From an uncultured Eubacteriales bacterium (lineage in GTDB: Bacteria > Bacillota > Clostridia > Christensenellales > Aristaeellaceae), in NCBI GenBank assembly GCA_902767565.1, contig CACXHY010000001.1, forward strand, positions 166,217 to 230,216: DNA of 64,000 nt, read 5' to 3'. The translations under genes were made by a program, and so were the position numbers. The notes beneath the pieces are model-generated. The model was not told where the DNA came from, searched no databases, and saw nothing but the letters and a program-made list of their open reading frames with translations. Shown here one piece after another: positions 8,757-54,447 of the stretch (position 1 is its first letter; each line of letters starts with the position of its first letter).

Positions 8757-8850
8757 TGCACCGAGTTGTTACAAGTGCGGGACCGCTATGGACTTTGACC
8801 CGCTTCTGTGGTAGAATCGTTCCGAAACTGGCGTCCCGGAAGGCGCCGCG

Positions 8851-9696: not shown

Positions 9697-9732
9697 CGCC
9701 CTGCCGTTTCCGGTTGAGAAAGGAGCCTGTCC

Positions 9733-10185
9733 ATGAAGAAGCTGCTCTCCGCGATCCTGACGCTCTGCCTGCTCTGCGCTTGTGCTCAGTGTGAGCCGGG
9801 CTCCGAAGGCGAGACCCTGCTGGACCGGGTGCTGCGTCTGGTCCCCGACGCCGCCGGGCTGGTGCGCATGAGCGGCGACGACCTCTACGACCTGATCGGC
9901 ATCGATCCCGAAAGCTGCGTGGACTGGGTCTATCTGGCCGCCGCGGATGCCCTGGAGGGGCGGGAACTGATCGTCGTCCTCATGCCCGACGCCGAAAGCG
10001 CCGACGAGGCGGAGACCTTGTTGGATCACTATCTGGAAGCCCGCATGCGGGAGACCCGCAACTACCTCCCCGACGCTTATCAGGCCCTTTCGGAAGCGAG
10101 CGTCGTGCGGCAGGGCTGCCTGCTGATCCTCTCTGTCGCCGCCCCGGAGGCGGATGAAGCCGCCCTGCTGCTTGCGGAGGAGTGA
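9733..10185 (+). CDS. DUF4358-like lipoprotein
   Basis: MKKLLSAILTLCLLCAC signal/lipobox; small acidic secreted protein conserved next to MBOAT/DHHW genes. Confidence 0.55.
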   Translation: MKKLLSAILTLCLLCACAQCEPGSEGETLLDRVLRLVPDAAGLVRMSGDDLYDLIGIDPESCVDWVYLAAADALEGRELIVVLMPDAESADEAETLLDHYLEARMRETRNYLPDAYQALSEASVVRQGCLLILSVAAPEADEAALLLAEE

Positions 10186-10191
10186 CGCCGC

Positions 10192-11571: not shown

Positions 11572-11584
11572 GGAGGCTGACGGT

Positions 11585-12718
11585 ATGAAACATGAAAGAC
11601 GTCTGCGCCTCCCCGACGGGGCAGCGGTCACGGCGGGGCTGCTGATCCTGCTGGTCTTCGGCGTGATGGCGGCGCTCGGCTGGGGCGGGACCTTTTCCGA
11701 GCGGGAGAACCGCAACCTGGCACCTGTGCCCGATACGCCCGACCCGGTCAACTGGAATACCGACAAGCAGGTGGAGAGTTATCTCACCGACCACATCCCT
11801 TTCCGCCAGGTCCTGGTGGCGGCGGACAGCGCGGGGCTGTACCTCACGGGGCGCAATTCTCAGCTGAACACCTGGCTGGCGGGCGGCGCGCTGGTGGAGC
11901 GGCCCGTGCAGACGGACGAGCTGTCCCTCCGCGACACGGAGCGCCGGCTGGGCCGTCTGGGCAGTTTCGCGGAAAAGGCCGGCGTCCCCTGGTACATCCT
12001 CACGCCGCCCACCCACGGCAGCCTGACGACAGCCCGCATGTCGCCGCTCATGGCGGCGCAGTACGCGCAGGAGGCGGACATCCACGCGCTGGTGGATGCC
12101 ACGGGTCACCGGGTGGACATGCCGGAGTCCTTCGCGGCCGACCCCGACACCATGTATTACCGCACGGATCACCACTGGACGCTGGCAGGCGCTTACCAGG
12201 CCTACGTGGCGCTGGGGGATGCCCTGGGCTATGCGCCTCTGCCGCTGAACGGCTTCCGGATCACGGAGTACGCCGGTTTCCGCGGCACCACCCTGTCCCG
12301 CTCCGGTCTGCCGTCCCTGTGGTCCGACACGCTGGTCTGCGCGGAGCCCGACAGCCCTGTCACCCTGACCGTGACCGACGGGGACAGCACGGTCACATGG
12401 GATCACCTGATCTTCCCCGAGGACGCCGCCACCTATGACGGCTACGCGGTCTACCTGCACGGGAACCACGGGCTGCTGATCATCGAGCGCCCCGACGCGC
12501 CGGAGGGCACCCTGGTGGTGTTCCGGGATTCCTTCGCCAGCTGCCTGCTGCCCATGCTCAGCCAGCATTACCGCCGGGTCATCGCCGTGGACGCCCGCTA
12601 CTACACCGGCGTTTTCTCCGATGCTCTGGCCGTGAGCGATGACACCGCCGCCATCCTGTATGTGTATTCCCTGGACAGCCTGGTGAACGGCAGTTACATC
12701 ACCCGGAAGGCACGGTAA
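11585..12718 (+). CDS. DHHW family protein (AlgX/AlgJ-like SGNH fold, MBOAT partner)
   Basis: Literal DHHW motif (YYRTDHHWTLAG); N-terminal TM anchor; RBS GAGGAGG before ATG 11585. Confidence 0.8.
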   Translation: MKHERRLRLPDGAAVTAGLLILLVFGVMAALGWGGTFSERENRNLAPVPDTPDPVNWNTDKQVESYLTDHIPFRQVLVAADSAGLYLTGRNSQLNTWLAGGALVERPVQTDELSLRDTERRLGRLGSFAEKAGVPWYILTPPTHGSLTTARMSPLMAAQYAQEADIHALVDATGHRVDMPESFAADPDTMYYRTDHHWTLAGAYQAYVALGDALGYAPLPLNGFRITEYAGFRGTTLSRSGLPSLWSDTLVCAEPDSPVTLTVTDGDSTVTWDHLIFPEDAATYDGYAVYLHGNHGLLIIERPDAPEGTLVVFRDSFASCLLPMLSQHYRRVIAVDARYYTGVFSDALAVSDDTAAILYVYSLDSLVNGSYITRKAR

Positions 12719-12881
12719 CCGTTTCATGGACCGGCAGGCGCATCGCCTGCCTTTTTGCGCCGCGACACAGGCGCTCGGGCCGAACGGCGCCTGGTCCCGC
12801 ATTGCATACTCCGGTCTGTTTTTGCTTGCGTTTGAGCGTCGCTTGTGATATCATTCTCCGCGAACGAAAGGGGTGTTTTTC

Positions 12882-14666
12882 ATGCGAAAGCAGCTGACGG
12901 ATCTGCGCGCGGTCATGCGGGAGAACCATGTGGACTGGGTGCTGGTGCCCACCGACGACTTCCATGCCTCCGAATACGTGGGATCCTATTTCAAGAGCCG
13001 CACCTTCCTGACGGGTTTCACAGGCAGCGCCGGCGTGGCGCTGGCGGGAAAGGACTGGGCCGGTCTGTGGACGGACGGCCGCTATTTCCTGCAGGCAGGC
13101 ATGCAGCTGGAGGGTTCCGGCTTTGAGCTGATGAAGATGGGCGAAAAGGACGTGCCCACGATCCCCCGGTATCTGGAAAAGCACCTGAAAGCCGGGGACG
13201 TGCTCTCCTTCGACGGCCGCACCGTCACCGCGAAGCAGGCCGCTGCCTACCGCGAGATCTGCGGGAAGGCCGGCGCGACGCTGCGCACGGATCTGGACCT
13301 GGTCGGGAGCATCTGGACGGATCGCCCGGCCCTCTCCGCCGAGCCGGTGTTCGAGCTGGACGTGGCCTGGACCGGAAAGAGCCGCACCGACAAGCTGGCG
13401 GAGATCCGCGGGGCGCTGCGCGATGAGGGAGCGGATGCCCTGGTGCTGTCCTCCCTGATGGACATCTGCTGGCTGCTGAACATCCGGGGCAACGACGTCA
13501 CCAGTACCCCGGTGGTGCTCAGCTATATGATCCTCACCCAGGCGGAAGCCCGGCTGTTCATCAATCGCGCCGTGCTGTCGGACGAGATCCTCGGCCGTCT
13601 GGAAAAGGACGGCGTGTCGATCGAGCGGTATGAGGACATTCTTCCCGCCGTGGCGAAGCTGCCCGCCGGGGCGAGGGTGTGGGCGGACCTGCGCACGGTG
13701 AACTCCGCCATTGAGGACGCGCTGCCCGAGGGCGTTACCGTTATCGACAAGCAGAACCCCACGGTGGTCCCCAAGGCCTGCAAGAACCCCACCGAGGTGG
13801 CCAATTTCCGTCAGGCTCACGTCAGGGACGGCGTGGCCGTCACCCGCTTCATCCACTGGCTGAAACACACCGTCGGCAAAGAACCCGTCACCGAGCTCAG
13901 CGCGGCCGCGAAACTGGAAACCTTCCGGGAAGCCCAGGAGCACTACATCGAGCCCAGCTTCTCTCCCATCATCGGCTACGGACCTCACGGAGCCATCATC
14001 CACTACGGCGCGACGGAGGAGAGCGATGTGCCGCTGGAGCCCCGCGGCTTCCTGCTGGCCGATACCGGCGGACACTATCTGGAGGGCACCACCGACATCA
14101 CCCGCACCATCGCCCTGGGGCCGCTGACCGAAGAGGAGAAGCGCATGTATACGCTGGTCCTCCGCAGCCACCTGCAGCTCGGCGCCGTCCGGTTCAAATA
14201 CGGATGCACCGGCCTGAACCTGGACTATGCGGCCAGGGCGCCCTTCTGGAAGGAAGGCCTGGACTACAACCACGGCACCGGCCACGGCGTGGGCTATGTG
14301 CTGGGCGTGCACGAGGGTCCCCAGAGCTTCCGCTGGCGCAGCGCCGGCACGGAACCCGCGGCCGTGCTGGAACCCGGCATGATCACCAGCGACGAGCCCG
14401 GCATCTATCTGGAGGGCAAGTTCGGCGTCCGCATCGAAAACCTGACGGTGGTGTGCGAGAGCGGCGAGACGGAGTACGGCCGCTTCCTGCACACGGAGCA
14501 TCTGACCATGGTGCCCTATGAACTGGACGCCGTGGAGCCTTCCCTGATGACCGCCGAGGAACGGGAACTGCTGAACGCCTATCATCGCCGTGTGCGCGAA
14601 GTCCTCACGCCCTTCCTGCCCGCGGAGGAAGCGGAATGGCTGAAGGAAGCCACCCGCGAGATCTGA
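12882..14666 (+). CDS. Xaa-Pro aminopeptidase (M24B, aminopeptidase P, long form with creatinase-like N-domains)
   Basis: Metal ligands HGTGHGVG, EPGIY and ENL are present; 594 aa; RBS AAAGGGG before ATG 12882. Confidence 0.85.
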   Translation: MRKQLTDLRAVMRENHVDWVLVPTDDFHASEYVGSYFKSRTFLTGFTGSAGVALAGKDWAGLWTDGRYFLQAGMQLEGSGFELMKMGEKDVPTIPRYLEKHLKAGDVLSFDGRTVTAKQAAAYREICGKAGATLRTDLDLVGSIWTDRPALSAEPVFELDVAWTGKSRTDKLAEIRGALRDEGADALVLSSLMDICWLLNIRGNDVTSTPVVLSYMILTQAEARLFINRAVLSDEILGRLEKDGVSIERYEDILPAVAKLPAGARVWADLRTVNSAIEDALPEGVTVIDKQNPTVVPKACKNPTEVANFRQAHVRDGVAVTRFIHWLKHTVGKEPVTELSAAAKLETFREAQEHYIEPSFSPIIGYGPHGAIIHYGATEESDVPLEPRGFLLADTGGHYLEGTTDITRTIALGPLTEEEKRMYTLVLRSHLQLGAVRFKYGCTGLNLDYAARAPFWKEGLDYNHGTGHGVGYVLGVHEGPQSFRWRSAGTEPAAVLEPGMITSDEPGIYLEGKFGVRIENLTVVCESGETEYGRFLHTEHLTMVPYELDAVEPSLMTAEERELLNAYHRRVREVLTPFLPAEEAEWLKEATREI

Positions 14667-14702
14667 AGCCCGAACCCACCCTGACATACGGGAGGAACGC
14701 CC

Positions 14703-15392
14703 ATGCGCAAGGGAGACGAATCCAAACAGCAGATCATTCGCGCCGCCGAGCGCCTGTTCTGCGCCAACGGCTTTGATGAGACCAGCGTGCAGCGCATCCT
14801 TGAGGAGGTCCACGGCAGCAAGGGCGGCTTCTACCACCACTTTGCCAGCAAGGAAGACCTCCTGCGGGCCATCTGCATGCAGCGCGCGGAAGCCGCGGCT
14901 TCCCGGGTGCTCAACGAGGTCAGCGAGCCCGATCCCCTTCGGCAGCTGGACCGGCTGCTCGGCGCCGTGATGCCCTTCTCGAAGGACGACCTGGTCTTCA
15001 TGGGCATGCTGATCCCCATCCTGGACCGCCCCGAGAGCACCCCCGTCCGGGTGGGTTATCAGGACGCGCTGGCAGCGGCCTTCGGACCCATGGTGCAGGG
15101 CTGCATCGAGGAGACGGCCGCCGACGGTACGCTGATGCCCGCAGATCCGAATATCACCGCGCCGGTCATGACCCTGCTGAACGCCTGCTGGTATGATACG
15201 GCGCTCCTGCTGCTGAAGAATATCAGGGAGGGGCGGCCCACCGACCCTTCGGCCCTGCTGGAGCGGCTGACCACCTGCCGCCGTTGCCTGGAGGTGCTGC
15301 TGGACGCGCCTTACGGCAGCCTGACCCTCGTTTCCCTGGAGGACTGGGCGGTTTTTGCCGAGGGCATTGCCCGTCAGATCCGGCGGCAGTAG
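14703..15392 (+). CDS. TetR/AcrR family transcriptional regulator
   Basis: N-terminal HTH (IIRAAERLFCANGFDETSVQRILEEVHGSKGGFYHHFASKEDLL). Confidence 0.85.
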   Translation: MRKGDESKQQIIRAAERLFCANGFDETSVQRILEEVHGSKGGFYHHFASKEDLLRAICMQRAEAAASRVLNEVSEPDPLRQLDRLLGAVMPFSKDDLVFMGMLIPILDRPESTPVRVGYQDALAAAFGPMVQGCIEETAADGTLMPADPNITAPVMTLLNACWYDTALLLLKNIREGRPTDPSALLERLTTCRRCLEVLLDAPYGSLTLVSLEDWAVFAEGIARQIRRQ

Positions 15393-15464
15393 CCGTTTCC
15401 ATCACCCGATTTCCGCACGGAGCGCGCCTCCGCGGGCACGCTCCCGCCAATGAAAGGATCCCGT

Positions 15465-17471
15465 ATGAAAGCGCTGATTCTGAACGCCGGCCTGGGCTCC
15501 CGCATGGGCAGCCTGACCGCTGAGCACCCCAAGTGCATGACCGAGATCGCCCCCGCGGAGACCATCCTCTCCCGTCAGCTCCGCCAGCTTTGCGATGCGG
15601 GCATCACGGATGTGATCATGGCGACGGGCTATTATCATGATGTGCTGACCGCGTACTGCGAAAGCCTGGGGCTGCCCCTGCGCGTCACCTTTGTGCGGAA
15701 TCCCCGTTTTCGCGAGACCAACTACATCTACAGCATCTACTGCGCCCGCGAGCTGCTGGACGACGACCTCCTGCTGATGCACGGCGACCTGGTCTTCGAG
15801 AACGAAGCCCTGGACCGCATCCTCGCCCACGAGGGCAGCTGCATGGCGGTGTCCTCCACCCTCCCCCTGCCGGAGAAGGATTTCAAGGCGGTCGTCGCGG
15901 ACGGAAAAGTCCTCAGGGTCGGCGTGAACTTCTTCACCGATGCCATGGAGGCCCAGGCCCTGTACAAGCTGCGCCGGGAGGACTGGCGGATCTGGCTGGA
16001 CAGCATTGCCGCCTTCTGCGAGGCAGGCCGGGACACGGTCTACGCCGAGGATGCCCTGAACGCGCTGGACGGCGCGGCCAACATCGGCGCGGCTGACCTG
16101 CAGAACCTGCTGTGCGCCGAGATCGACAACGCGGAAGATCTGGCGGTGGTGAAGGCCCGGCTCCGGGAGGTGGAACGCCGCACGGTCTATGTCTGCTTCG
16201 CCACCGATGTGCTGCACGCCGGGCATTTTGCCATTCTGGAAAAGGCCCGGCGTCTCGGCCATGTGACCGTGGGCGTGATGAGCGACGAGGCCGTGGCCAC
16301 CTACAAGCGTTTCCCCCTGGTGAACGAAGCCGACCGGGTCGCGATGTTCCGCAACGTGGTGGGCGTGGAGCGCGTGGTGGTGCAAAAGACCCTCAGTTAC
16401 AGGGAGAATCTGGAAAAGTACCGCCCGGACATCGTGGTCCACGGGGACGACTGGCGCAGCGGCATCCAGAAGCCCATCCGGGACGAGGTGGTATCCGTAC
16501 TGGCCTCTTACGGCGGGCGCCTGGTGGAATTCCCCTACGCCCGGGATGAGCAGCACGCCGCCCTGGACAAGCGCCTGAACGCGGAGCTGGGCACCCCGGA
16601 CGTCCGCCGGGGGCGGCTGCGCCGGGTGCTGGCCATGAAGGGCCTGGTCACCGCCATGGAGGCCCACTCCGGCCTCACCGGGCTGATCGTCGAAAAGACC
16701 GTGGTGGCCGAGAACGGCGGCGTGCGCCAGTTCGACGCCATGTGGATCTCCTCCCTGTGCGATTCCACCGCCAAGGGCAAGCCGGACATCGAGCTGGTGG
16801 ACATGACCTCCCGTTTCCGCACCATCGACGACATCATGGAGGTCACCACCAAGCCCATCATCTTCGACGGCGACACCGGCGGGCTGACGGAGCACTTCGT
16901 CTACACCGTGCGCTCTCTGGAACGGATGGGCGTCTCCATGGTCATCATCGAGGATAAGACCGGCCTGAAGAAGAACAGCCTCTTCGGGACGGAGGTGCCC
17001 CAGACCCAGGAGAGCATCGAAAACTTCTGCGCCAAGATCCGTGCCGGCAAGGCTGCCCAGAAGACCCGGGAGTTCATGATCTGCGCCCGCATCGAAAGCC
17101 TGATCCTGGAGCGCGGCATGGAGGACGCCCTCACCCGGGCCTTCGCCTTTGCGGAAGCCGGGGCCGACGCCGTCATGATCCACAGCCGCAAAAAGGATCC
17201 CGCCGAGATCTTCGAATTCATCGAGAAGTTCCGGGCGAAGGACGGCACGACCCCCATCGTGCTGGTGCCCACCTCCTTCAACACCGTGTATGAGGAGGAG
17301 TTCAAGGAGCGCGGCGCCAACATCATCATTTACGCCAACCATCTCACCCGCACGGGCTTCCCTGCCATGCAGGACGCGGCGCAGACCATCCTGCGCAGTC
17401 ACCGCGCGAAGGAATGCGATGACAAGTGCATGTCCATCAAGGACATCATCACCCTGATCCCGGAGGAGTGA
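15465..17471 (+). CDS. pepM: tri-domain phosphonate biosynthesis protein: LicC/PntC-like nucleotidyltransferase + HxGH cytidylyltransferase + phosphoenolpyruvate mutase (PepM)
   Basis: aa 1-~230 carry the GxGxR-type motif (MKALILNAGLGSRMG) of sugar/choline-phosphate nucleotidyltransferases. aa ~240-380 carry HxGH (VYVCFATDVLHAGHF), as in GCT/Fom1-type cytidylyltransferases. aa ~390-669 carry the PepM hallmark IIEDKTGLKKNSLFG (EDK-x5-NS) and LRRVLAMKGLVTAMEAHSGLTGLIVE. RBS GAAAGGA before ATG 15465. Confidence 0.8.
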   Translation: MKALILNAGLGSRMGSLTAEHPKCMTEIAPAETILSRQLRQLCDAGITDVIMATGYYHDVLTAYCESLGLPLRVTFVRNPRFRETNYIYSIYCARELLDDDLLLMHGDLVFENEALDRILAHEGSCMAVSSTLPLPEKDFKAVVADGKVLRVGVNFFTDAMEAQALYKLRREDWRIWLDSIAAFCEAGRDTVYAEDALNALDGAANIGAADLQNLLCAEIDNAEDLAVVKARLREVERRTVYVCFATDVLHAGHFAILEKARRLGHVTVGVMSDEAVATYKRFPLVNEADRVAMFRNVVGVERVVVQKTLSYRENLEKYRPDIVVHGDDWRSGIQKPIRDEVVSVLASYGGRLVEFPYARDEQHAALDKRLNAELGTPDVRRGRLRRVLAMKGLVTAMEAHSGLTGLIVEKTVVAENGGVRQFDAMWISSLCDSTAKGKPDIELVDMTSRFRTIDDIMEVTTKPIIFDGDTGGLTEHFVYTVRSLERMGVSMVIIEDKTGLKKNSLFGTEVPQTQESIENFCAKIRAGKAAQKTREFMICARIESLILERGMEDALTRAFAFAEAGADAVMIHSRKKDPAEIFEFIEKFRAKDGTTPIVLVPTSFNTVYEEEFKERGANIIIYANHLTRTGFPAMQDAAQTILRSHRAKECDDKCMSIKDIITLIPEE

Positions 17472-17474
17472 CCC

Positions 17475-18581
17475 ATGACACAGCGGATCCTGACACCCAA
17501 CGGACATTACCGCGAACTGGATGAAGCGCTTCGTGACCTGGGCGTCACCCGGCTGCTGCTGGTATGCGACGGGGCCTGGGAGCACCTCGACATCCGGCAT
17601 TGGGCAGAAGAACTCCGGGATGTGACCGTGACCTTCTTCCGGGACTTTCAGCCCAACCCCCGGTACGAGTCCGTCGCCGCCGGCGTGCGGTGCTTCCGGG
17701 AGGCGGACGCGCAGGCGATCTTCGCGGCGGGCGGAGGCTCGGCCATGGACGTGGCCAAATGCATCAAGCTTTTCTGCCGGATGGATGCGGGGCGCAATTA
17801 CCTGGATCAGCCCATCGTTCCCAACGATGTGCCGCTGATCGCCATGCCCACCACCGCGGGCACCGGCTCCGAGGCCACCCGTTATGCCGTCATCTACCGG
17901 GACGGCGAAAAGCAGTCCGTGACCCACGACAGTATCGTCCCCTCGGTGGTGCTGATGGATCCGAGCGCGCTGCGCATGCTGCCACCCTACCAGAGAAAAG
18001 CCACCATGCTGGACGCTCTCTGCCACGCGGTCGAATCCTGCTGGTCGGTCCACAGCACCGACGAGAGCCGCACATACGCGAGGGAGGCCATTTCTCTTGT
18101 GACGGCCCATATGCCGGGCTATCTCGCCAACGCGGAGGAGGGCAACGCGGGCATGCTGCGGGCAGCCAACACCGCGGGCAAAGCCATCAACATCACCCAG
18201 ACCACAGCCGGCCACGCCATGTGCTACAAGCTCACCAGCCTGTATGGCCTTGCCCACGGCCATGCCGCTGCCCTGTGCAACCGGGCGCTGTTTCCCTGGA
18301 TGCTGGCGCACCCGGAGCGCTGCACGGATCCGCGGGGGCCGGAGCACCTGCAGGCCGCGCTTCGGGACATCGCGTCCGCCATGAGCTGCGAAGCCCCGGA
18401 ACAGGCGGCGGACAAGCTGGATCGGCTGGTGCGGGATCTCGGCCTGAGCGTCCCCTCCCCCGCTCCGGAAGACTTTGACACGCTGGTCCGCTCGGTCAAC
18501 CCGGTGCGGCTGAAGAATTTCCCGATGAGGCTCGGGGAGGACGACATCACGGCGCTGTATCACCGCATCCTCCGGGCCTGA
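17475..18581 (+). CDS. iron-containing (group III) alcohol dehydrogenase, probable phosphonoacetaldehyde reductase (PhpC/FomC-like)
   Basis: Fe-ADH family motifs (GGGSAMDVAK, metal His cluster HAMCYKL...HGHA); sits between pepM and ppd; translationally coupled (GGAGGAG overlaps the pepM stop). Confidence 0.7.
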   Translation: MTQRILTPNGHYRELDEALRDLGVTRLLLVCDGAWEHLDIRHWAEELRDVTVTFFRDFQPNPRYESVAAGVRCFREADAQAIFAAGGGSAMDVAKCIKLFCRMDAGRNYLDQPIVPNDVPLIAMPTTAGTGSEATRYAVIYRDGEKQSVTHDSIVPSVVLMDPSALRMLPPYQRKATMLDALCHAVESCWSVHSTDESRTYAREAISLVTAHMPGYLANAEEGNAGMLRAANTAGKAINITQTTAGHAMCYKLTSLYGLAHGHAAALCNRALFPWMLAHPERCTDPRGPEHLQAALRDIASAMSCEAPEQAADKLDRLVRDLGLSVPSPAPEDFDTLVRSVNPVRLKNFPMRLGEDDITALYHRILRA

Positions 18582-31085: not shown

Positions 31086-32915
31086 TCATTCTCCTCTCTT
31101 CCGTCCGCAGTTGCCGCAGAAATTGCCGGTGATGCCCTTCTGACCGCACACGCAGTCCCACGCGGCCGGAGGCTCCGGACGGCGGGCGCCGCAGTTGGTG
31201 CAGAAGTTGCCGGTGATGCCCTTCTGTCCGCAGCCGCAGTCCCAGGTCTGCACAGGTGCAGGCCGCCGGGCGCCGCAGTTGCCGCAGAAATTGCCCGTGA
31301 TGCCCTTCTGCCCGCAGCTGCAGTCCCAGGTGTCCGCGGACGGGGCGGCGGAGGCGGGAGACGCGGGCTGTGCCTGGATGTTCATCGCCTGCATGATGCC
31401 GCCGAGCTGCGGGGCGATGGCACCGGCAGCCGCCATGCCGACCCCGAGGCCCAGCATGTCGCCGATGATGCCGCTGCCGCCGCCGGACGAGATCACCGGC
31501 CCCATATTACCGATGCTTTCCGCATAGGCCTTCTGCACCTCGGCCTGCAGCACATCCTTCTGGCTATATCCCTTGGCCTTCATGATCTCGGCCTCCGTCA
31601 GACCGGCCATGCGCTGCGCCTGAGCCTCTGCCTGCGCCTCGATGACCCGACGTTCCGCGGCCCTGCGGGCGATCTCGGTCTCGGTGGTCTGGCGCTGGAT
31701 CTCGGCCTCCCTGCGGGCCGCCTCAATGGCTGCCTTGCTCTGCTCCTCCGCGGTCCGGTACATGGTCTCGCTCTGTGCCTTGGCGGTCTTCACCGTGGCC
31801 TCGGCCTGATACATGCGGGTCTGGAGCGTGATGGTATGGAGCTCGCGGATGCGCTTGAAGTTCGGGTCGTCCTCCGGCAGCACCACATTGGTCACGTAGA
31901 ACTGCGGGATGGTCAGGCCGTAATCCTCGAATCCCGGAGCGATCGCGTCCCGCAGGCTGGCGGAGAGCAGGTCCAGTTTCGTATCGATCTCCAGGATATC
32001 GATGGCTTCCTTCGTGATGATGGAAGCCAGGTTCGTCTTGACGGCACTGGTGATGAGCGGGCGGAAGGAGGCCTGGATCGACTTCGTCAGTCCCGGGCCT
32101 TCTTCCCAGGAGATGCCCTTCATGGTGCCGACCAGTTTGACCAGCAGCTTGCGGGAGTTGGAGACCTGCACGTTCATCTCACCGGAAGCGCCCAGCTGCA
32201 GCGGTGTGCCGGTCAGCGGATCGATAAAGCGGGCTTTCTCCGGAGTGCCCCACTTGATCGCCATCTGCACGGTCTTGTTGATGAAATAGACCTCCGAGTG
32301 AAAGGTGCCTTCCGTATCGGTGGGCAGGGGGCTGACCCGCTCCAGCATGGGCAGCTTCTGCGTCTCAAGGGTGTAACGGCCGGGTCCGAAGAGATCCAGA
32401 GCCTGACCGTCGCGGAAGAAGATAGCCTCCTGGCTCTCGTGGACGATCAGCTGGGAGCCGTAATTGAAATCCTCGATGGGATGCTTCCAGACGAAGACGC
32501 TGTTGTCGCCCTCGTATTTGATGATGCTGGCCAGACCGTCCCGGCGGGTCTGCTCCGCGATCAGGCGCTCCTGCACGTCGTTCACATAATCGCAGACCGG
32601 GCAGGTAAAGCTGACGGCGCCTTTTGCCGTGCTCAGCCGGATGCCGCACTGGCGGCAGGAGAAGGCCTGCTCCCGCTGTCCGTCCGACAGGGCGTCGATG
32701 GAGGCATTGCAGACCGGGCAGACCGCCTTGGAGCCCTTGGTCTGATCATAGACGATCTGGTTGGAACAGCGCGGGCACTTGACCGAAGCCATTTTATCCA
32801 GCTTCAGGTCGATGGTGTATCCGCAGCTGCAGGGGATCTTCTTTTTCGCGAAGATCCCGGTCTTTCCCTGGGCATACTTCCCGCACGCGGGACACGCGAT
32901 CGCAAACTGTGCCAT
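31086..32915 (-). CDS. SPFH/band-7 domain protein with N-terminal and tandem C-terminal zinc ribbons (COG4260 / YdjI-like, flotillin-like)
   Basis: Four CxxC pairs in the first 150 aa; central SPFH domain with coiled coil; C-terminal WDC(x)CGQKGITGNFCxNCGxRRP repeated three times; RBS GGGAGGAAAG before ATG 32915. Confidence 0.75.
   Translation of the reverse strand: MAQFAIACPACGKYAQGKTGIFAKKKIPCSCGYTIDLKLDKMASVKCPRCSNQIVYDQTKGSKAVCPVCNASIDALSDGQREQAFSCRQCGIRLSTAKGAVSFTCPVCDYVNDVQERLIAEQTRRDGLASIIKYEGDNSVFVWKHPIEDFNYGSQLIVHESQEAIFFRDGQALDLFGPGRYTLETQKLPMLERVSPLPTDTEGTFHSEVYFINKTVQMAIKWGTPEKARFIDPLTGTPLQLGASGEMNVQVSNSRKLLVKLVGTMKGISWEEGPGLTKSIQASFRPLITSAVKTNLASIITKEAIDILEIDTKLDLLSASLRDAIAPGFEDYGLTIPQFYVTNVVLPEDDPNFKRIRELHTITLQTRMYQAEATVKTAKAQSETMYRTAEEQSKAAIEAARREAEIQRQTTETEIARRAAERRVIEAQAEAQAQRMAGLTEAEIMKAKGYSQKDVLQAEVQKAYAESIGNMGPVISSGGGSGIIGDMLGLGVGMAAAGAIAPQLGGIMQAMNIQAQPASPASAAPSADTWDCSCGQKGITGNFCGNCGARRPAPVQTWDCGCGQKGITGNFCTNCGARRPEPPAAWDCVCGQKGITGNFCGNCGRKRGE
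31108..31345. repeat. three tandem 84-nt direct repeats inside the SPFH gene (encoding 28-aa zinc-ribbon repeats)
   Basis: Repeat units start at 31108, 31192 and 31276 (period 84) with ~85% identity between units. Confidence 0.85.
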
Positions 32916-33096
32916 TGTTCTTTCCTCCCGATCAGTGTATCGCTTATACCTGCGCGATCCGGCGCATGGCGGCTGACGACGGTCTGTCACGCGTCAGCCC
33001 GGAGAAGCCGCCGGTACGCGTGTCCGGTTGCCGGAACGGCTGTCCCGTCACCGCAGCGCAAGCCTCTGTCTGCGGCAGATCATTTCACTATTTTGG

Positions 33097-33125
33097 AGTA
33101 TACCACAATTGCGGCGCGGATTCAA
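33097..33125 (-). promoter_or_regulatory. near-consensus sigma70 promoter (TTGAAT-17-TATACT, TG-extended) of the SPFH/4-TM/TIR operon
   Basis: Minus strand reads cTTGAATccgcgccgcaattgTGgTATACT; about 175 nt upstream of the SPFH gene start. Confidence 0.6.
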
Positions 33126-33281
33126 GTCTCGTGACGGAGAAGGACCGGTCAGACCTGACGCCGCAGCGCATCCAAAATGACCCGAAGCGCCGGCGGAGCA
33201 TCCTTTCCACCACACCATCGAGAGGAAGCGTCCGCAGGGCGGGAGAACGCCGCGCTCCGGGCATGAAGCGGCGTGTCCGCA

Positions 33282-33322
33282 CAGAGCAAAACCCCGGGAA
33301 CGGCGGGTTTGCCGTCCCGGGG
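33282..33322 (-). terminator. rho-independent terminator after the VirD4-like ATPase gene
   Basis: CCCCGGGA(A)CGGC-aaaccc-GCCGTTCCCGGGG hairpin followed by TTTTGCTCT on the minus strand. Confidence 0.7.
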
Positions 33323-33393
33323 CAGGATGCAAGGTATTCTGCTGCCCGTCTGCGGATCGTCGCGGGCATCGGTCGAAGCCGGTGGAACGGTCC

Positions 33394-34794
33394 CTATGCG
33401 CTTTGCCGTGCCGCGTCCCGGGAGAGGCGCCGCTCGACCGCGCTGAGGTCTTCCAACTGCGTATAGAAAGGCGGCGTTCTTTCCCGGATGATCACGCCTT
33501 CCTCATACCGCATCAGCGACAGCTGGGCAGGCGTGATCAGAGGATCGCCGAGGGGGTTGTGACCGCACAGCTGGCTGAGTTTCAACCTGAAGCTTTCATC
33601 CTTGGCGATGTTCAGCGCGATCCAGGTGGAGCAATTGGCGGATATCGTTCCCGCCGCCGCGCCGTATACGCCTTCCAGCTGGCTGTAGCTCTGGATCGCG
33701 AGGACATACCGGATGCCGCGTGACCGGGAGATGGTCAGCGCCGTTTCCAGCCCTGGGATGGCAGGCCGGATATTGCACAGCTCATCCAGGTATATCTCCG
33801 TGCGGACCGGCAGGCGGCCGCCATGCTTCATGGCGCAATCGTTCAGGTCCTGGATCATCTGCGTCAGGAGCATCCCCTGCAGGCCGCCCAGCGCTGTCGA
33901 GTCATCCGGAAGGCTGATGTAGAGCACCGTCGGGCTGAGACCGATCTCCTGAAAGTCCAGGGCTTTGGGACGGGTCATCATCTCCAGGATATCGTCCCGG
34001 GCCGTAAAGTGCGTGATATAGCTGTTGAAGCAGGTCAGCACGTTGCCCCGCGTTACGTTGGAGCCATTCCGGAAGCCTTCCAGATTCCGCCGGGCCGGTG
34101 AATCCTTCGGGAGTTCGTCCGCAGAACTGAACAGCGGCGAAAGACTGTCGTAATCGCTGTCTGCCGTAATGGAAGCAGCCATTTTCAGCACTACGGACAG
34201 TGTCAGATCCCGGTTTGACTCCCAGATCGTGTAACAGATGCCCCGGAACAGGCTTGCGGAGGTGTTGCGCCAGAACGGATCGGAGCGGCTGCTTGGACCG
34301 TCATTAAAAACGGCGGCGATCAGGTCCTCCAGCAGTTTGACCGCCTTGTTCCGCTGCTTTCCGCCCTGCTTGTAAAGCGTGTTGATCTTCAGGAAGGGAT
34401 TCCAGGGGCTGCCCTTCTCGGGATCCCGGAAATCGACCCGCCGGATGGTGTATCCGCATTTGCGGGCCAGGTCCGACGTGGCCGCTTCCAACTCGCCCTT
34501 CACGTCAAAGACCACATAGGAGCGTTTGCTGCGGGCGGAGAGGGAATAGAGAAGCGACGGAATGATGATCAGCCGGGACTTGCCGGTGCCGGTGGCGCCG
34601 ATCACCAGCACATGGCGGCACTCATCTCCGCCGTCGGCCAGGACCCGGCCCCCGTGGTTGAGTAGGATGACGCCACCCTCCTCGCGGGCGTCGTCCCACG
34701 CGCCCTGCACGCAGCCCGGCATGCCGGTCAAGTCCGCATCGGAAGCCCATCCGGAAGAAGTATGCAGTCGATTCAGATACTTCTCGTAGTACAT
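33394..34794 (-). CDS. TraG/VirD4/TrwB-family (type IV coupling protein-like) ATPase, soluble form without TM helices
   Basis: Walker A VLVIGATGTGKS; FDVKGELEA motif; DPFWRNTSASLF; C-terminal region typical of T4CP all-alpha/TraG-D_C; no N-terminal TM segments; RBS AAGGAGG before ATG 34794. Confidence 0.65.
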   Translation of the reverse strand: MYYEKYLNRLHTSSGWASDADLTGMPGCVQGAWDDAREEGGVILLNHGGRVLADGGDECRHVLVIGATGTGKSRLIIIPSLLYSLSARSKRSYVVFDVKGELEAATSDLARKCGYTIRRVDFRDPEKGSPWNPFLKINTLYKQGGKQRNKAVKLLEDLIAAVFNDGPSSRSDPFWRNTSASLFRGICYTIWESNRDLTLSVVLKMAASITADSDYDSLSPLFSSADELPKDSPARRNLEGFRNGSNVTRGNVLTCFNSYITHFTARDDILEMMTRPKALDFQEIGLSPTVLYISLPDDSTALGGLQGMLLTQMIQDLNDCAMKHGGRLPVRTEIYLDELCNIRPAIPGLETALTISRSRGIRYVLAIQSYSQLEGVYGAAAGTISANCSTWIALNIAKDESFRLKLSQLCGHNPLGDPLITPAQLSLMRYEEGVIIRERTPPFYTQLEDLSAVERRLSRDAARQSA

Positions 34795-34805
34795 GGCATC
34801 CTCCT

Positions 34806-35567
34806 TCATTCGACGGAGCCGAACCCGATCCTCCTGGAGCCGGGGCATCTGTCGGGCTTTCCCGTCCTCGTCCTGTTGAAGCGATTCATGTAGGAGTAGG
34901 GGTCCTCCAGCGCCGAACGAAGGCTGTCTTCCGTGATGATGTCATTCCCGGCGCCGCAGGAGTGCAGAAAGCGCACGGCATCAAACCCCTTGTCGCCCTC
35001 CACCTCTCTCAGCGCGGCTTTCAGGAGCCGCGCCGCTTCATCGGTCGCGCAGGTCATGCCCGCCTTCCCGAGCATCACGCGGAGAGAGGCATGCCAATGG
35101 CGGCTCCTCACTTGCTCCACGTCCAGCCTGCCGTCAAAATCCAGGCAGTCGGCTGCCGTCAGACATTCGTTTTCCGTCGATACGCCGTAGAATACCGTGA
35201 CGCATTTCGAGGCGAGGCCATCGCGGATGGCCATGACCTCGCCCAGAGCCTTCAGGCGGTGACGGTCCTCCGGGTGTTTCAGCAGGCCGGAGATGTTCAG
35301 CAGAACCAATCCGCAGAAATGGCTCTTTCTCCCCGCCGCGGCGATCAGTCTTCCGCACAGGGCGGCCAGATCACGAAAACTGTTGGGGTCCTCATCCCCG
35401 GTGATCTCCATGGAGACCATGGGGCAGCTGTTCAGAACGGTGCGTTCTGGAAAACCGTCGGGTATGGAAGCATTGATGCCGCAGATGATTTCCTCCAGAT
35501 CATCTTTCGGGCAGTTGAGCAGGATCCGGGAACCGGGTGGTTTGGCAAAGAGCTGCGCAATCGTCAT
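34806..35567 (-). CDS. hypothetical protein (253 aa), co-operonic with the VirD4-like ATPase
   Basis: 12-nt spacer to the downstream gene; no recognisable motifs. Confidence 0.45.
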   Translation of the reverse strand: MTIAQLFAKPPGSRILLNCPKDDLEEIICGINASIPDGFPERTVLNSCPMVSMEITGDEDPNSFRDLAALCGRLIAAAGRKSHFCGLVLLNISGLLKHPEDRHRLKALGEVMAIRDGLASKCVTVFYGVSTENECLTAADCLDFDGRLDVEQVRSRHWHASLRVMLGKAGMTCATDEAARLLKAALREVEGDKGFDAVRFLHSCGAGNDIITEDSLRSALEDPYSYMNRFNRTRTGKPDRCPGSRRIGFGSVE

Positions 35568-36173
35568 TTCCGTCGCGTTCCTCCCGCGTGCGTCCGCATT
35601 GCCGCTTGCGATGTTCCGTTTGCACCTGTACGATATCAGATAATGAGCCCTTTGTCATTGACCTTGCAGTTCACACCGGGAAAGCAGACGCGCATCCCGG
35701 AAGCAGAAAAGGCCGTGATCGCCGGTGCCGCATGGTGCCGGCCGTCACGGGCTGTTCCTTATCCGGTGCGGTTGATCATACCGCTCATCATCCTCCGCCG
35801 TTTCAGGCGTGCCGTTCTCCGGGGGCCTGGATCGGGGCGGATCTGCGGTCCGCCGTATTTCAGGCGGTTTCGTCACCGGTCAGATCGCCGTCGGTTGGCC
35901 GGAAGATCAGGACCTTGCTCCGGAACGCTTTCCAGGCGGAATCGAAACAGCGCTTACCGCAGCAGACAACCCGGGTTCGGGTGCCGTCCCGGCGAAGCAT
36001 CTCATGCTTCAGACAGGCGCTATCGCCATGTGTGAAGCTGTTGTTCACCTGTAGCATGAAAGCTTGATCCGCGCTTGTCTTGCGGGAACGGTCCGCATGT
36101 GCTATATTCAGGGAAGCACATGTTTCCCCCATCCAATGACTGATAGAGCGCCTGCGCGCAAAGGAGGAGCACC

Positions 36174-36692
36174 ATGGCCGAAACCCTGATCACCCTGAAA
36201 ACACGGCGCAGCTGCCGGGCCTACAAGCCGGAACTGATCGAAGAGGACAAGCTGAACGCCATCATTGAAGCCGGCACCTACGCCGCCACCGGCATGGGCC
36301 GGCAGTCGCCCATCATCATCGCCGTCACGGACAGGACCGTGCGGGACCGGCTCTCCCGGATGAACGCCGCTGTCATGGGCGCCGGCTCCGATCCCTTCTA
36401 CGGCGCGCCGGAACTGCTGATCGTGCTGGCTGACCGGGATATGCCCACCTATCTGTACGACGGCAGTCTGGTCCTCGGGAACATGATGAACGCCGCCGCG
36501 GATCTGGGCGTAGCCAGCTGCTGGATCCACCGGGCGAAGGAAGAGTTCGAGAGCGAGGAAGGCAAGGCCTTCCTGAAGGAGCTTGGCATCGAGGGCAACT
36601 ACGAGGGCATCGGCCACCTGATCCTCGGCTACGCCGCAAAGCCCGCCGCGGATCCGGCTCCCCGGAAGGCTGATTATGTCTACAGGGTGTGA
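36174..36692 (+). CDS. nitroreductase family protein
   Basis: LKTRRSCRAY...; small NAD(P)H nitroreductase fold signature; RBS AAAGGAGGAG. Confidence 0.8.
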   Translation: MAETLITLKTRRSCRAYKPELIEEDKLNAIIEAGTYAATGMGRQSPIIIAVTDRTVRDRLSRMNAAVMGAGSDPFYGAPELLIVLADRDMPTYLYDGSLVLGNMMNAAADLGVASCWIHRAKEEFESEEGKAFLKELGIEGNYEGIGHLILGYAAKPAADPAPRKADYVYRV

Positions 36693-53571: not shown

Positions 53572-54447
53572 GTGAGACCGTTGTACCTGTCAGCCTTCTA
53601 TTTCCCGGGCGCGGAGCGGGAAGCCGACTTCATGTTCGGCCTCAAGACCACGTACGATCAGAGCGTTTATCCGTATGGCGTCCTTCCGAAGGCGGGCCTT
53701 GACGAGATCTTCTTCAAGCCTGTAACGATCCTGTACGGCGGAAACGGCTGCGGCAAAAGCACCGCCCTCAATGTGATCGCGGAAAAGCTGCGGCTGGACC
53801 GGACCTGCTCGTATAACCGGTCCCGCTTCTTCGGGCGGTTCGTGGATGACTGCCGGGCTTCGGTGGAGGACGGGATCCCGAAGGGGAGCCGCATCATCAC
53901 CAGCGACGACGTGTTCAACATGATGCTGGACATCCGCGCGCTCAACGACGGCATCGACCTCCGGCGGGAGGAGCTGGCGGAAGACTACTTCCGGCTGAAG
54001 CGGGAGAGATTCCGGGTGCAGTCGCTGGACGACTACGAGCACCTGCGGCAGGTGACCCTCGCGCGGAGCAAAACGCTGAGCAGATTCATGGCGCAGGAGT
54101 CCGGGAAAAGCGTCCGGGAACGCTCCAACGGCGAGAGCGCGCTCATGTACTTTCAGAGCAGGATGGACACGGATACCCTCTGCCTGCTGGACGAGCCCGA
54201 AAACAGCCTGAGCCCGGAGAACCAGCTGATCCTGGCGGACTTCCTGGCCGAAGCCGTCCGCTACTGCGGGAACCAGCTGATCATCAGCACCCATTCCCCC
54301 TTCCTGCTGGCGCTCCCGGGCGCCCGCATCATCGACCTGGACCGGCAGTCCGAGGTGGCGGACAGCTGGACCGAACTGAAGAATCCCCGGGTCTATTACG
54401 AGTTCTTCAGGAAACACGCGGCCGAGTTCGAGGACCGGCGGGAATGA
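53572..54447 (+). CDS. AAA-type ATP-binding protein (AAA_21/ABC-ATPase-like, orphan)
   Basis: P-loop GGNGCGKST and Walker B LLDEPENSLSP; no adjacent permease or partner; GTG start. Confidence 0.55.
   Translation: MRPLYLSAFYFPGAEREADFMFGLKTTYDQSVYPYGVLPKAGLDEIFFKPVTILYGGNGCGKSTALNVIAEKLRLDRTCSYNRSRFFGRFVDDCRASVEDGIPKGSRIITSDDVFNMMLDIRALNDGIDLRREELAEDYFRLKRERFRVQSLDDYEHLRQVTLARSKTLSRFMAQESGKSVRERSNGESALMYFQSRMDTDTLCLLDEPENSLSPENQLILADFLAEAVRYCGNQLIISTHSPFLLALPGARIIDLDRQSEVADSWTELKNPRVYYEFFRKHAAEFEDRRE

What the first reader, a model, noticed from the sequence alone, without database searches (positions are those of the whole stretch)
33282..35567. Orphan, TM-less VirD4/TraG-family ATPase in a two-gene operon with an unknown 253-aa protein, with no conjugation machinery nearby
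The 466-aa protein has the T4 coupling-protein hallmarks: Walker A VIGATGTGKS, the FDVKGELEA motif, DPFWRN and a TraG-D_C-like C-terminus. It lacks the N-terminal TM helices of canonical T4CPs, and there is no relaxase, VirB4, pilin or integrase anywhere in the window.

It is translationally coupled to a motif-less 253-aa protein, with a 12-nt spacer. It has its own terminator (33282-33322) and sits directly upstream of the TIR/SPFH operon.

Soluble FtsK/HerA/TraG-superfamily ATPases with a small partner are recurrent components of anti-phage systems, so this pair could be a second defence-type module. Alternatively it is a decayed remnant of an integrated conjugative element. Either reading makes the 27.5-35.6 kb region an accessory island.
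Basis: partly seen in the sequence, partly recalled or inferred. Interest (0 to 1): 0.55.

Follow-up and report, generated by a model that had tools for sequence, protein, structure and literature searches.

The report
Orphan soluble coupling-protein ATPase with dead-AAA+ partner
A conjugation-type DNA-pumping ATPase that has lost its membrane anchor is always encoded next to a catalytically dead AAA+-fold protein and never next to conjugation genes; this rare pair from uncultured gut Clostridia looks like a conjugation motor re-used for another, still untested, job.

Summary
Window 34806-35567 (-) encodes a 253-aa protein and 33394-34794 (-) a 466-aa VirD4/TraG-family ATPase. They are separated by 11 nt containing AGGAGG and followed by a strong hairpin terminator.

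The ATPase is a true coupling-protein (T4CP) fold, with best structural matches to Cagbeta and TrwB rather than HerA. Its catalytic motifs are intact and it has no membrane helices. The "motif-less" partner has an AAA+ fold of the clamp-loader/initiator type. It lacks Walker A and B and carries an invariant C-terminal I-G-F tail.

The pair is adjacent in 13 independent genomic contexts, down to 18-25% partner identity. None contains type IV secretion (T4SS) genes, whereas a canonical relative used as a control sits among relaxase, VirB4-, VirB6- and VirB3-like genes. So the "decayed ICE remnant" reading is rejected.

The family is tiny: about 28 partner clusters among 1.84 billion representative proteins. 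It is absent from the plasmid and phage collections, matches no PADLOC system, and lies in a foreign low-GC island in one genome.

Function is untested. My best reading (confidence 0.38) is an exapted soluble DNA motor, loaded or gated by the dead AAA+ partner, acting in conflict with invading DNA. I rate it a new variant of a known kind, interest about 0.55.

The parts
34806..35567 (-). Partner gene, 253 aa. Degenerate AAA+ fold (alpha/beta core plus helical lid), no Walker A or B, soluble.
34821..34829 (-). Codons for I247-G248-F249, the C-terminal 'RRIGF' motif on a disordered tail of the partner.
   Evidence: G248 and F249 are invariant across 24 sequences, down to 22% identity. pLDDT is below 50 for residues 240-253. 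A role as a docking peptide is inferred, not shown.
34795..34805 (-). 11-nt intergenic spacer with the Shine-Dalgarno sequence AGGAGG between the partner stop codon and the ATPase start codon.
   Evidence: Sequence. The equivalent gaps in 11 other loci measured are 12-36 nt, each containing a GGAG-type Shine-Dalgarno motif; the thirteenth context, L032, has 18 nt by its gene calls.
33394..34794 (-). ATPase gene, 466 aa. VirD4/TraG-type coupling-protein fold (nucleotide-binding domain plus all-alpha domain) without the N-terminal transmembrane domain.
   Evidence: Pfam PF02534 1.5e-40. NCBIfam CD1115 family 3.7e-65, at 220 bits below the 250-bit cut-off. AlphaFold2 model pLDDT 86.7, pTM 0.85. 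Foldseek: Cagbeta 2e-14, TrwB about 1e-12, HerA 6e-7 or worse. No transmembrane segment.
34576..34599 (-). Walker A motif GATGTGKS (residues 66-73).
   Evidence: G66, G69, G71 and K72 are invariant in 26 homologues.
33781..33786 (-). Walker B residues D337-E338 (in YLDELCNI).
   Evidence: Invariant in 26 homologues, as are R357-S358-R359-G360 and Q368/Q372. Also kept in the distant L032 copy.
33288..33322 (-). Intrinsic-terminator-like hairpin plus UUUU, 72 nt after the ATPase stop codon.
   Evidence: Energy -30.7 kcal/mol, z = -3.63, 0 of 200 shuffles as stable.
35630..35658 (-). Sigma-70-like promoter match (ATGACA-17-TATCGT, TG-extended), about 60 nt upstream of the partner start codon.
   Evidence: Consensus scan. 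This is weak evidence only: 2 sites found against 0.8 expected by chance.

Best explanation
**What is shown**
- This is an autonomous two-gene module in which a conjugative coupling protein has been taken out of conjugation.
- The ATPase descends from the Firmicutes CD1115-type VirD4 family. It has lost the membrane anchor and kept a complete ATPase site and the all-alpha domain.
- It is always co-transcribed with, and co-diverges with, a soluble AAA+-fold protein that cannot bind ATP in the canonical way.
- Type IV secretion genes are absent from every context examined.

**What is inferred**
- The ATPase assembles into a cytoplasmic ring that binds and pumps DNA or a nucleoprotein, as TrwB and VirD4 do.
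- The dead AAA+ partner resembles clamp-loader delta/RFC and ORC/Cdc6 subunits that open or load rings. It gates assembly or loads the ring onto its substrate, possibly by docking its invariant C-terminal I-G-F tail.
- The module works in conflict with foreign DNA. It would intercept or compete for incoming conjugative, plasmid or phage DNA, in the manner proposed for 'HerA/FtsK capture' systems. It does not export DNA.
For: **Identity of the ATPase**
- Assigned to the VirD4/TraG family by profile searches and fold comparison.
- Catalytic residues are invariant.
- No transmembrane segment in any of the 60 clade members.

**Partner**
- AAA+ fold without a P-loop.
- G-F tail invariant down to 22% identity.

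**Strict linkage**
- 13 intact contexts. Gaps of 11-36 nt with a Shine-Dalgarno motif were measured in 12 of them; L032 has 18 nt by its gene calls.
- Pairwise identities of the two proteins correlate at r = 0.94.
- Linkage persists in L032, where the partner is 18-25% and the ATPase 25-29% identical to the others.

**No T4SS**
- None in any context.
- Positive control: the canonical relative in L033 lies among conjugation genes.

**Accessory and horizontally moved**
- A 9-kb island of GC 0.45-0.52 in a GC 0.62-0.68 genome. The junction is seen in two further assemblies, from other samples.
- One copy is decayed.
- Only about 28 partner clusters among 1.84 billion representative proteins.

**Neighbours often conflict-type**
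- TIR, WYL, IetA/TRIP13-like AAA, NADAR, Macro, NUDIX, vWA+PP2C.

**Precedents in the literature and PDB**
- HerA/FtsK domains captured from mobile elements into defence systems, coupled to Orc/Cdc6 AAA+ or inactive helicase domains (PMC10853773).
- A T4SS-DNA_transf domain proposed as a sensor in some Menshen NsnA proteins (PMC12065111).
- A T4CP regulated by a small cytosolic partner, Cagbeta/CagZ (PDB 8dol, top hit).
- Deleting the transmembrane domain abolishes conjugation for TrwB, PcfC and MobB (PMC7431656).
Against: - There is no experimental evidence of any kind.
- Neither protein has a nuclease or other effector domain.
- No PADLOC model matches beyond weak P-loop and mad8 similarity.
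- Neighbourhoods are heterogeneous, and several are plain housekeeping, for example TrkHA and SHMT in L015.
- Guilt by association is therefore weak and was not tested statistically.
- Physical interaction of the two proteins, ring formation and DNA binding were not modelled or measured.
- The family is so rare that selection for defence cannot be inferred from its distribution.
Confidence: 0.38

Rival explanations
1. A trans-acting coupling protein. The pair recruits a substrate (a chromosomal island or mobilisable element) to a T4SS encoded elsewhere in the genome. The partner would act as adaptor or anchor, as in two-partner coupling proteins.
For: - Mobilisable elements sometimes carry a coupling protein but no T4SS (PMC4027160).
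- Coupling proteins without a transmembrane domain exist and use a second protein, as TraJ/TraI of pIP501 do (PMC7431656).
- The ATPase keeps the all-alpha domain and the TraG-D_C region used for substrate recognition.
Against: - No relaxase, oriT-binding protein or integrase accompanies the pair in any of 13 contexts.
- The partner is soluble, not a membrane anchor.
- Deleting the transmembrane domain abolishes transfer in TrwB, PcfC and MobB (PMC7431656).
- The pair is absent from 72,556 plasmids.
Confidence: 0.2
2. A maintenance or DNA-handling function of a small non-conjugative mobile island. The motor serves the element's own replication, segregation or hitch-hiking, not host defence.
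For: - In L001 the pair lies in a compositionally foreign 9-kb block with a sigma-70 factor, DUF3232, NADAR and small ORFs.
- Parts of that block recur in L005, L015 and L025: the sigma factor, a DUF2828/DUF7788 vWA protein, and small-ORF families 5 and 8.
Against: - No integrase, transposase, replication gene or flanking repeat was found in any context.
- Only the pair itself is universal.
- No match in viral contigs or phage genomes.
Confidence: 0.2
3. A lineage-specific housekeeping DNA translocase, analogous to soluble FtsK-like SftA, used in chromosome handling or sporulation by these Clostridia.
For: - In L015 the pair matches host codon usage (GC3 0.87-0.95) and sits between trkHA and glyA.
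- The nearest longer relative, P0063, also lies among core genes with no T4SS: a DnaJ-domain gene, a PCRF/RF-1 release-factor gene and thrS.
Against: - Found in only 6 of 185,579 species-representative genomes, although that search was pattern-limited.
- One copy is truncated with the partner deleted.
- Horizontal acquisition in L001.
- Position is not conserved between genomes.
Confidence: 0.1
4. A decaying remnant of an integrated conjugative element.
For: - The closest family is the conjugative CD1115 VirD4 family.
- SprT-like genes, common on conjugative elements, occur near some copies.
Against: - 13 independent intact copies with invariant catalytic residues and a conserved dedicated partner.
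- All lack the transmembrane domain in the same way.
- No other conjugation gene in any context, in contrast to the control.
- The partner is unrelated to the genes upstream of a canonical coupling protein.
Confidence: 0.04

Closest known systems
VirD4/TraG type IV coupling proteins, Firmicutes CD1115 family (NF045973; MPF-FATA conjugative elements)
   Same: - Same fold: nucleotide-binding domain plus all-alpha domain.
- Same motifs: GSxxWA-like N-terminal motif, Walker A and B, RSRG...IQS..Q.
- Best sequence and structure matches.
   Different: - No N-terminal transmembrane domain.
- 130-260 residues shorter.
- Only 24-30% identical, and below the NCBIfam cut-off (220 against 250 bits).
- Never next to a relaxase or T4SS genes, unlike the control locus L033.
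Coupling proteins without a transmembrane domain, working as two-partner systems (TraJ/TraI of pIP501; class iii of Llosa and Alkorta, cited in PMC7431656)
   Same: A VirD4-type ATPase without membrane helices, encoded next to a dedicated partner.
   Different: - TraI is a membrane protein within a 15-gene tra operon.
- Here the partner is a soluble dead AAA+ fold and there is no tra operon.
Cagbeta-CagZ of Helicobacter pylori (PDB 8dol)
   Same: - A coupling-protein ATPase controlled by a small cytosolic protein.
- Cagbeta is the top structural match of the ATPase: E 2e-14, TM-score normalised to the query 0.69.
   Different: - Cagbeta is membrane-anchored and part of the cag T4SS.
- From my own knowledge, not tested here: CagZ is a helical protein, not an AAA+ fold.
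'HerA/FtsK capture' counter-invader systems (PMC10853773)
   Same: - A pumping ATPase of the HerA/FtsK superfamily taken from a mobile-element source.
- It is coupled to an AAA+ (Orc/Cdc6-type) or inactive helicase-type partner.
   Different: - The described systems contain an active restriction-type endonuclease and wHTH domains. This pair has no nuclease or HTH detected.
- The ATPase here is specifically VirD4-type.
- The AAA+ partner here is completely inactive.
Two-gene HerA-effector defence systems (SIR2-HerA, DUF4297-HerA) and mad8 of MADS
   Same: - A soluble ring ATPase of the same superfamily with one partner.
- Weak PADLOC similarity to mad8 (2e-7) and to HerA P-loops.
   Different: - HerA structures match about seven orders of magnitude worse than coupling proteins.
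- The partner is not SIR2, a nuclease or DUF4297.
- No PADLOC system-level match.
Menshen NsnA variants with an N-terminal T4SS-DNA_transf domain (PMC12065111)
   Same: A coupling-protein-type ATPase domain placed in a non-conjugative, proposed anti-phage context.
   Different: There it is one domain fused to ParB-DUF262 within a three-gene system. Here it is a stand-alone protein with a different partner.

Membership tests
VirD4/TraG type IV coupling protein | P-loop nucleotide-binding domain with Walker A and B of the FtsK/HerA superfamily | tested here: met
   PF02534 1.5e-40. GATGTGKS and DE are invariant.
VirD4/TraG type IV coupling protein | All-alpha domain inserted in the nucleotide-binding domain | tested here: met
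   TrwB_AAD_bind 6.5e-18. Helices span about residues 133-286 in the model. Full-length structural alignment to Cagbeta and TrwB.
VirD4/TraG type IV coupling protein | N-terminal transmembrane anchor | tested here: not met
   No 19-residue window reaches a Kyte-Doolittle mean of 1.6 in any of 60 clade members. 57 of the 60 longer relatives have at least one such window; one of the three exceptions, P0068, is an N-terminally truncated copy of P0073.
VirD4/TraG type IV coupling protein | Encoded with a relaxase and/or T4SS (VirB4 and others) | tested here: not met
   0 of 13 contexts and nothing in the 64-kb window. Control locus L033 shows Relaxase, MobC, TrbL_2, PrgI and a VirB4-like gene.
VirD4/TraG type IV coupling protein | NCBIfam equivalog score for the CD1115 family | tested here: not met
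   220.5 bits against a cut-off of 250.
VirD4/TraG type IV coupling protein | Hexameric, DNA-dependent ATPase that couples a substrate to the secretion channel | not testable with these tools
   Needs biochemistry, or multimer modelling that was not available.
HerA-type defence ATPases | HerA fold as best structural and sequence match; known partner (SIR2, DUF4297, NurA) | tested here: not met
   DUF87 matches only residues 60-106, at 4e-5. HerA structures score E 6e-7 or worse, against 2e-14 for coupling proteins. The partner has none of those domains.
AAA+ ATPases (partner protein) | Alpha/beta core plus helical lid | tested here: met
AAA+ ATPases (partner protein) | Walker A GxxxxGK[ST] and Walker B hhhhDE | tested here: not met
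   No GK[ST] anywhere in 19 homologues. The strand at the Walker B position reads LLLLN[IV]S. No AAA Pfam hit.
HerA/FtsK capture defence systems (PMC10853773) | Captured HerA/FtsK-superfamily ATPase coupled to an AAA+ or inactive helicase-type module | tested here: inconclusive
   Architecture is analogous. Homology of the partner to the Orc/Cdc6 proteins of those systems was not tested directly.
HerA/FtsK capture defence systems (PMC10853773) | Active restriction-type endonuclease and wHTH in the system | tested here: not met
   No nuclease or HTH domain in either protein. Both models are fully accounted for by the ATPase and AAA+ folds.
Catalogued anti-phage systems (PADLOC 2.0) | Match to system component models | tested here: not met
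   Only mad8 at 2e-7 and HerA P-loop hits for the ATPase, and none for the partner.

The most novel reading that the evidence does not exclude
The pair is a previously undescribed minimal anti-mobile-element system. A domesticated, cytoplasmic coupling protein acts as a decoy or interceptor. With its all-alpha domain it recognises the relaxase-DNA complexes or DNA ends of incoming conjugative elements or phages. It is loaded onto them by a dead clamp-loader-like AAA+ subunit, and it blocks their establishment by ATP-driven translocation or sequestration, without any nuclease.
Probability: 0.15. Interest if true: 0.8.

Novelty: new variant of a known kind. Interest (0 to 1): 0.55.

Why it matters
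Coupling proteins are treated as diagnostic markers of conjugation, and annotation pipelines call this gene "conjugative DNA transfer protein". A conserved lineage that has shed both the membrane anchor and the secretion machinery, and gained a dedicated dead AAA+ partner, shows two things:

- The marker can mislead mobilome surveys.
- The conjugation motor can be re-used as a soluble machine.

If the conflict reading is right, it would add a nuclease-free example to the emerging idea that defence systems capture DNA pumps from the elements they fight. It would also give a simple two-protein system for studying how a ring translocase is gated by an inactive AAA+ subunit.

Tried and rejected
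**Searches that found nothing**
- PADLOC, PHROGs and NCBIfam give no family for the partner.
- The partner profile against PDB sequences gives nothing meaningful.
- IMG/VR scans with both alignments find no relative.
- The partner has no match in the PLSDB plasmid or INPHARED phage collections.
- Rfam finds nothing in 32900-36300.
- There are no island-flanking direct repeats and no tRNA next to the pair.

**Ideas tested and dropped**
- A third conserved gene was looked for. The small ORFs flanking the pair are subclade-specific, and the window's 65-aa ORF (35860-36057) has no homologue outside this genome.
- The partner is not a diverged form of the DUF4240 or DUF3801 genes that precede a canonical coupling protein. 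hhalign probabilities are 0.2% or lower.
- Functional linkage with the TIR/SPFH operon was rejected. The adjacency occurs only in this genome, and a terminator and a promoter-like site separate the two units.

**Searches limited or unavailable**
- The metagenome scan added only 4 loci.
- The AFDB Foldseek library was unavailable.
- A profile of distant partners returned only 4 proteins.
Full report
**1. The observation**

The region holds two minus-strand genes. The partner gene spans 34806-35567 and encodes 253 aa. The ATPase gene spans 33394-34794 and encodes 466 aa.

A longer ORF starting at 34848 overlaps the partner gene, but it is not the real start. All 26 aligned homologues begin MYYEKYLN at the position of ATG 34794.

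The junction reads TGA-AGGAGGATGCC-ATG.

Seventy-two nucleotides after the ATPase stop codon lies a GC-rich hairpin followed by UUUU (33288-33322). Its energy is -30.7 kcal/mol with z = -3.6, and none of 200 shuffles fold as well. A promoter-like TTGAAT-17-TATACT then precedes the SPFH gene. The pair is therefore its own transcription unit.

**2. The ATPase**

- Pfam gives T4SS-DNA_transf at 1.5e-40, TrwB_AAD_bind at 6.5e-18 and TraG-D_C at 2.8e-17. The HerA domain DUF87 matches only the P-loop stretch, at 4e-5.
- NCBIfam's best model is the VirD4-like CD1115 family, at 3.7e-65. The score of 220 bits is below the 250-bit cut-off.
- An AlphaFold2 model (pLDDT 86.7, pTM 0.85) matches Cagbeta (E 2e-14, TM-score normalised to the query 0.69) and TrwB (about 1e-12) over its full length. 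HerA structures appear only from 6e-7.
- Walker A (GATGTGKS), Walker B (DE in YLDELCNI), RSRG and the IQS..Q motif are invariant in 26 homologues.
- None of the 60 members of this short clade has a hydrophobic segment, and Walker A sits at about residue 66. The 600-730-aa relatives have one or two N-terminal hydrophobic segments, with Walker A at residues 126-189.

**3. The partner**

No sequence library recognises it.

With an 18-sequence alignment, AlphaFold2 gives pLDDT 85. The model is a five-stranded alpha/beta core plus a helical lid.

- Foldseek ranks clamp-loader subunits first: RFC, then chain D of the E. coli gamma complex (1jr3). From my own knowledge, not from the tool output, that chain is the delta subunit, which binds no nucleotide. 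ORC/Cdc6 and CbbX follow.

No homologue contains a GK[ST] motif. The strand at the Walker B position reads LLLLN[IV]S. It is therefore a catalytically dead AAA+ fold.

Across 24 sequences, down to 22% identity, only seven columns are invariant. They include the G-F of a C-terminal "RRIGF" motif. That motif sits on a tail modelled as disordered, which is the pattern of a docking peptide. The docking role is an inference.

**4. Distribution and linkage**

The ATPase search found about 60 clusters of 455-485-aa proteins at 42-70% identity. There is then a gap to canonical proteins at 24-30%.

The partner family is tiny. Only 32 hits, about 28 of them credible, were found among 1.84 billion representative proteins.

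Carriers are uncultured gut and rumen Clostridia, labelled Aristaeellaceae, Eubacteriales or "Clostridia bacterium".

I examined 13 independent intact contexts: the window, L001, L004, L005, L009, L012, L015, L016, L020, L021, L023, L029 and L032.

- In every one the partner directly precedes the ATPase on the same strand. The gaps of 11-36 nt contain a GGAG-type Shine-Dalgarno motif in the 12 loci measured; L032 has 18 nt by its gene calls.
- Pairwise identities of the two proteins correlate at r = 0.94.
- The linkage persists in L032, where the partner is 18-25% and the ATPase 25-29% identical to the others.
- That ATPase is still closer to the short clade than to canonical coupling proteins, at 173 against 110 bits.

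**5. Context**

No context contains a relaxase, VirB4, VirB6- or VirB3-like gene, or an integrase.

As a positive control, a canonical CD1115 protein (P0105) was looked up in the same way. It sits among Relaxase, MobC/NikA, DUF3801, TrbL_2, PrgI, a VirB4-like ATPase and an M23 peptidase.

The window itself is housekeeping and metabolic throughout.

Apart from the pair, nothing is universal. Recurrent but non-universal neighbours are:

- a sigma-70 factor;
- a DUF2828/DUF7788 vWA protein;
- NADAR, DUF3232 and SprT-like genes;
- in the most divergent branch, vWA plus PP2C and a second soluble TrwB-like module.

Other neighbours include WYL, an IetA/TRIP13-like AAA, Macro, NUDIX and, here, TIR. 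None of these forms a PADLOC system with the pair.

**6. Mobility and dispensability**

- In L001 the pair lies in a 9-kb block of GC 0.45-0.52 inside a genome of GC 0.62-0.68. GC at third codon positions (GC3) is 0.52-0.67 in the block, against 0.82-0.93 in the flanks.
- The junction between the host GH1 gene and the island is reproduced in contig L003, from another sample's assembly; the shorter contig L002 shows the same pair-plus-sigma-factor arrangement.
- In L025/L026 the ATPase is truncated to 374 aa without Walker A, and the partner is deleted.
- In the window the GC3 of the pair is 0.76-0.78, against 0.84-0.89 for the genes on either side. No flanking repeats or tRNA were found.
- The partner has no match in plasmid, phage or viral-contig collections.
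- The ATPase matches only canonical CD1115 proteins of conjugative plasmids, at 30% identity or less.

**7. Interpretation**

Shown: this is a conserved, autonomous, horizontally transferable two-gene module. It consists of a coupling-protein ATPase that has lost its membrane anchor and all secretion partners, plus a dead AAA+ protein. The "decayed ICE remnant" reading is contradicted by the data.

Inferred: because the catalytic site and the all-alpha domain are conserved, the ATPase probably still forms an ATP-driven ring on nucleic acid. The partner belongs structurally to the clamp-loader/initiator group, whose members open or load rings. It carries an invariant tail motif, so it most likely gates or loads the ATPase.

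A role in export through a T4SS is unlikely, for three reasons:

- Deleting the transmembrane domain abolishes transfer in TrwB, PcfC and MobB (PMC7431656).
- The one known natural class without a transmembrane domain uses a membrane partner inside a tra operon, as TraJ/TraI of pIP501 do (PMC7431656).
- The partner here is soluble.

The closest published concept is "HerA/FtsK capture". In it, defence systems recruit pumping ATPases from mobile elements and couple them to Orc/Cdc6 AAA+ or inactive helicase modules (PMC10853773). A T4SS-DNA_transf domain has also been noted as a putative sensor in some Menshen NsnA proteins (PMC12065111). Cagbeta/CagZ shows that a small cytosolic protein can control a coupling protein (PDB 8dol).

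Unlike those systems, this pair has no nuclease.

I therefore favour a conflict-related soluble DNA motor, at confidence about 0.38. The rivals are trans-mobilisation (0.2), island maintenance (0.2), a housekeeping role (0.1) and an ICE remnant (0.04).

**8. Verdict**

This is a new variant of a known kind. It is of moderate interest because it is rare, untested and found only in uncultured organisms, but it is clean, conserved and directly testable.

Noticed in passing
None matches a PADLOC model. The operon has its own promoter-like site at 33125-33097. It is linked to the pair only in this genome.
   Followed up: partly
window 31105-31356: Three tandem 84-nt repeats (76-79% identical to the reference copy) within the 3' end of the SPFH gene. 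They encode three repeats of about 28 aa of a CxC...CxxC zinc-ribbon-like motif (WDCxCGQKGITGNFCxNCGxRRP).
   Followed up: no
L021 1795-5779 (-) and L023 526-3473 (-): In the most divergent branch, a second soluble TrwB-like ATPase (468-470 aa; TrwB_AAD_bind 1e-34; mad8 6e-12) is transcribed divergently from the pair. It has its own conserved companions: a 108-aa protein, a 321-369-aa protein with an HEDRH motif, and a 400-aa protein. The pair there is followed by a vWA protein and a PP2C phosphatase.
   Followed up: partly
L027 10001-12025: The nearest longer relative (P0063, 674 aa, two N-terminal hydrophobic segments, 29% identical) is also an orphan. It lies between a DnaJ-domain gene and PCRF/RF-1 release-factor and threonyl-tRNA synthetase genes, with no T4SS gene within 10 kb. 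Orphan VirD4-like genes in Clostridia may be more common than assumed.
   Followed up: no
L001 about 8400-17500: A 9-kb island of GC 0.45-0.52 in a GC 0.62-0.68 genome. It carries the pair, a sigma-70 factor (regions 1.2-4), DUF3232, NADAR and several small ORFs. It has no integrase, tRNA or obvious boundary repeats.
   Followed up: partly
P0061 (691 aa): Another VirD4-like protein without hydrophobic segments, with Walker A at residue 49 and a precomputed Ribosomal_L12 (PF00542) hit. It is closer to the short clade (168 bits) than to canonical proteins (129 bits). Its context was not examined.
   Followed up: no
window 35568-36173: An unusually long (about 600 nt) non-coding stretch upstream of the partner gene. 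It has no Rfam match. Its only ORF (65 aa, 35860-36057) has low GC3 and no homologue outside this genome.
   Followed up: partly
window 53572-54447 (+): A 291-aa ORF matching only the C-terminal ends of the AAA_15 and AAA_21 (OLD/AbiEii-type ABC ATPase) profiles. It may be a short or truncated defence-type ATPase.
   Followed up: no
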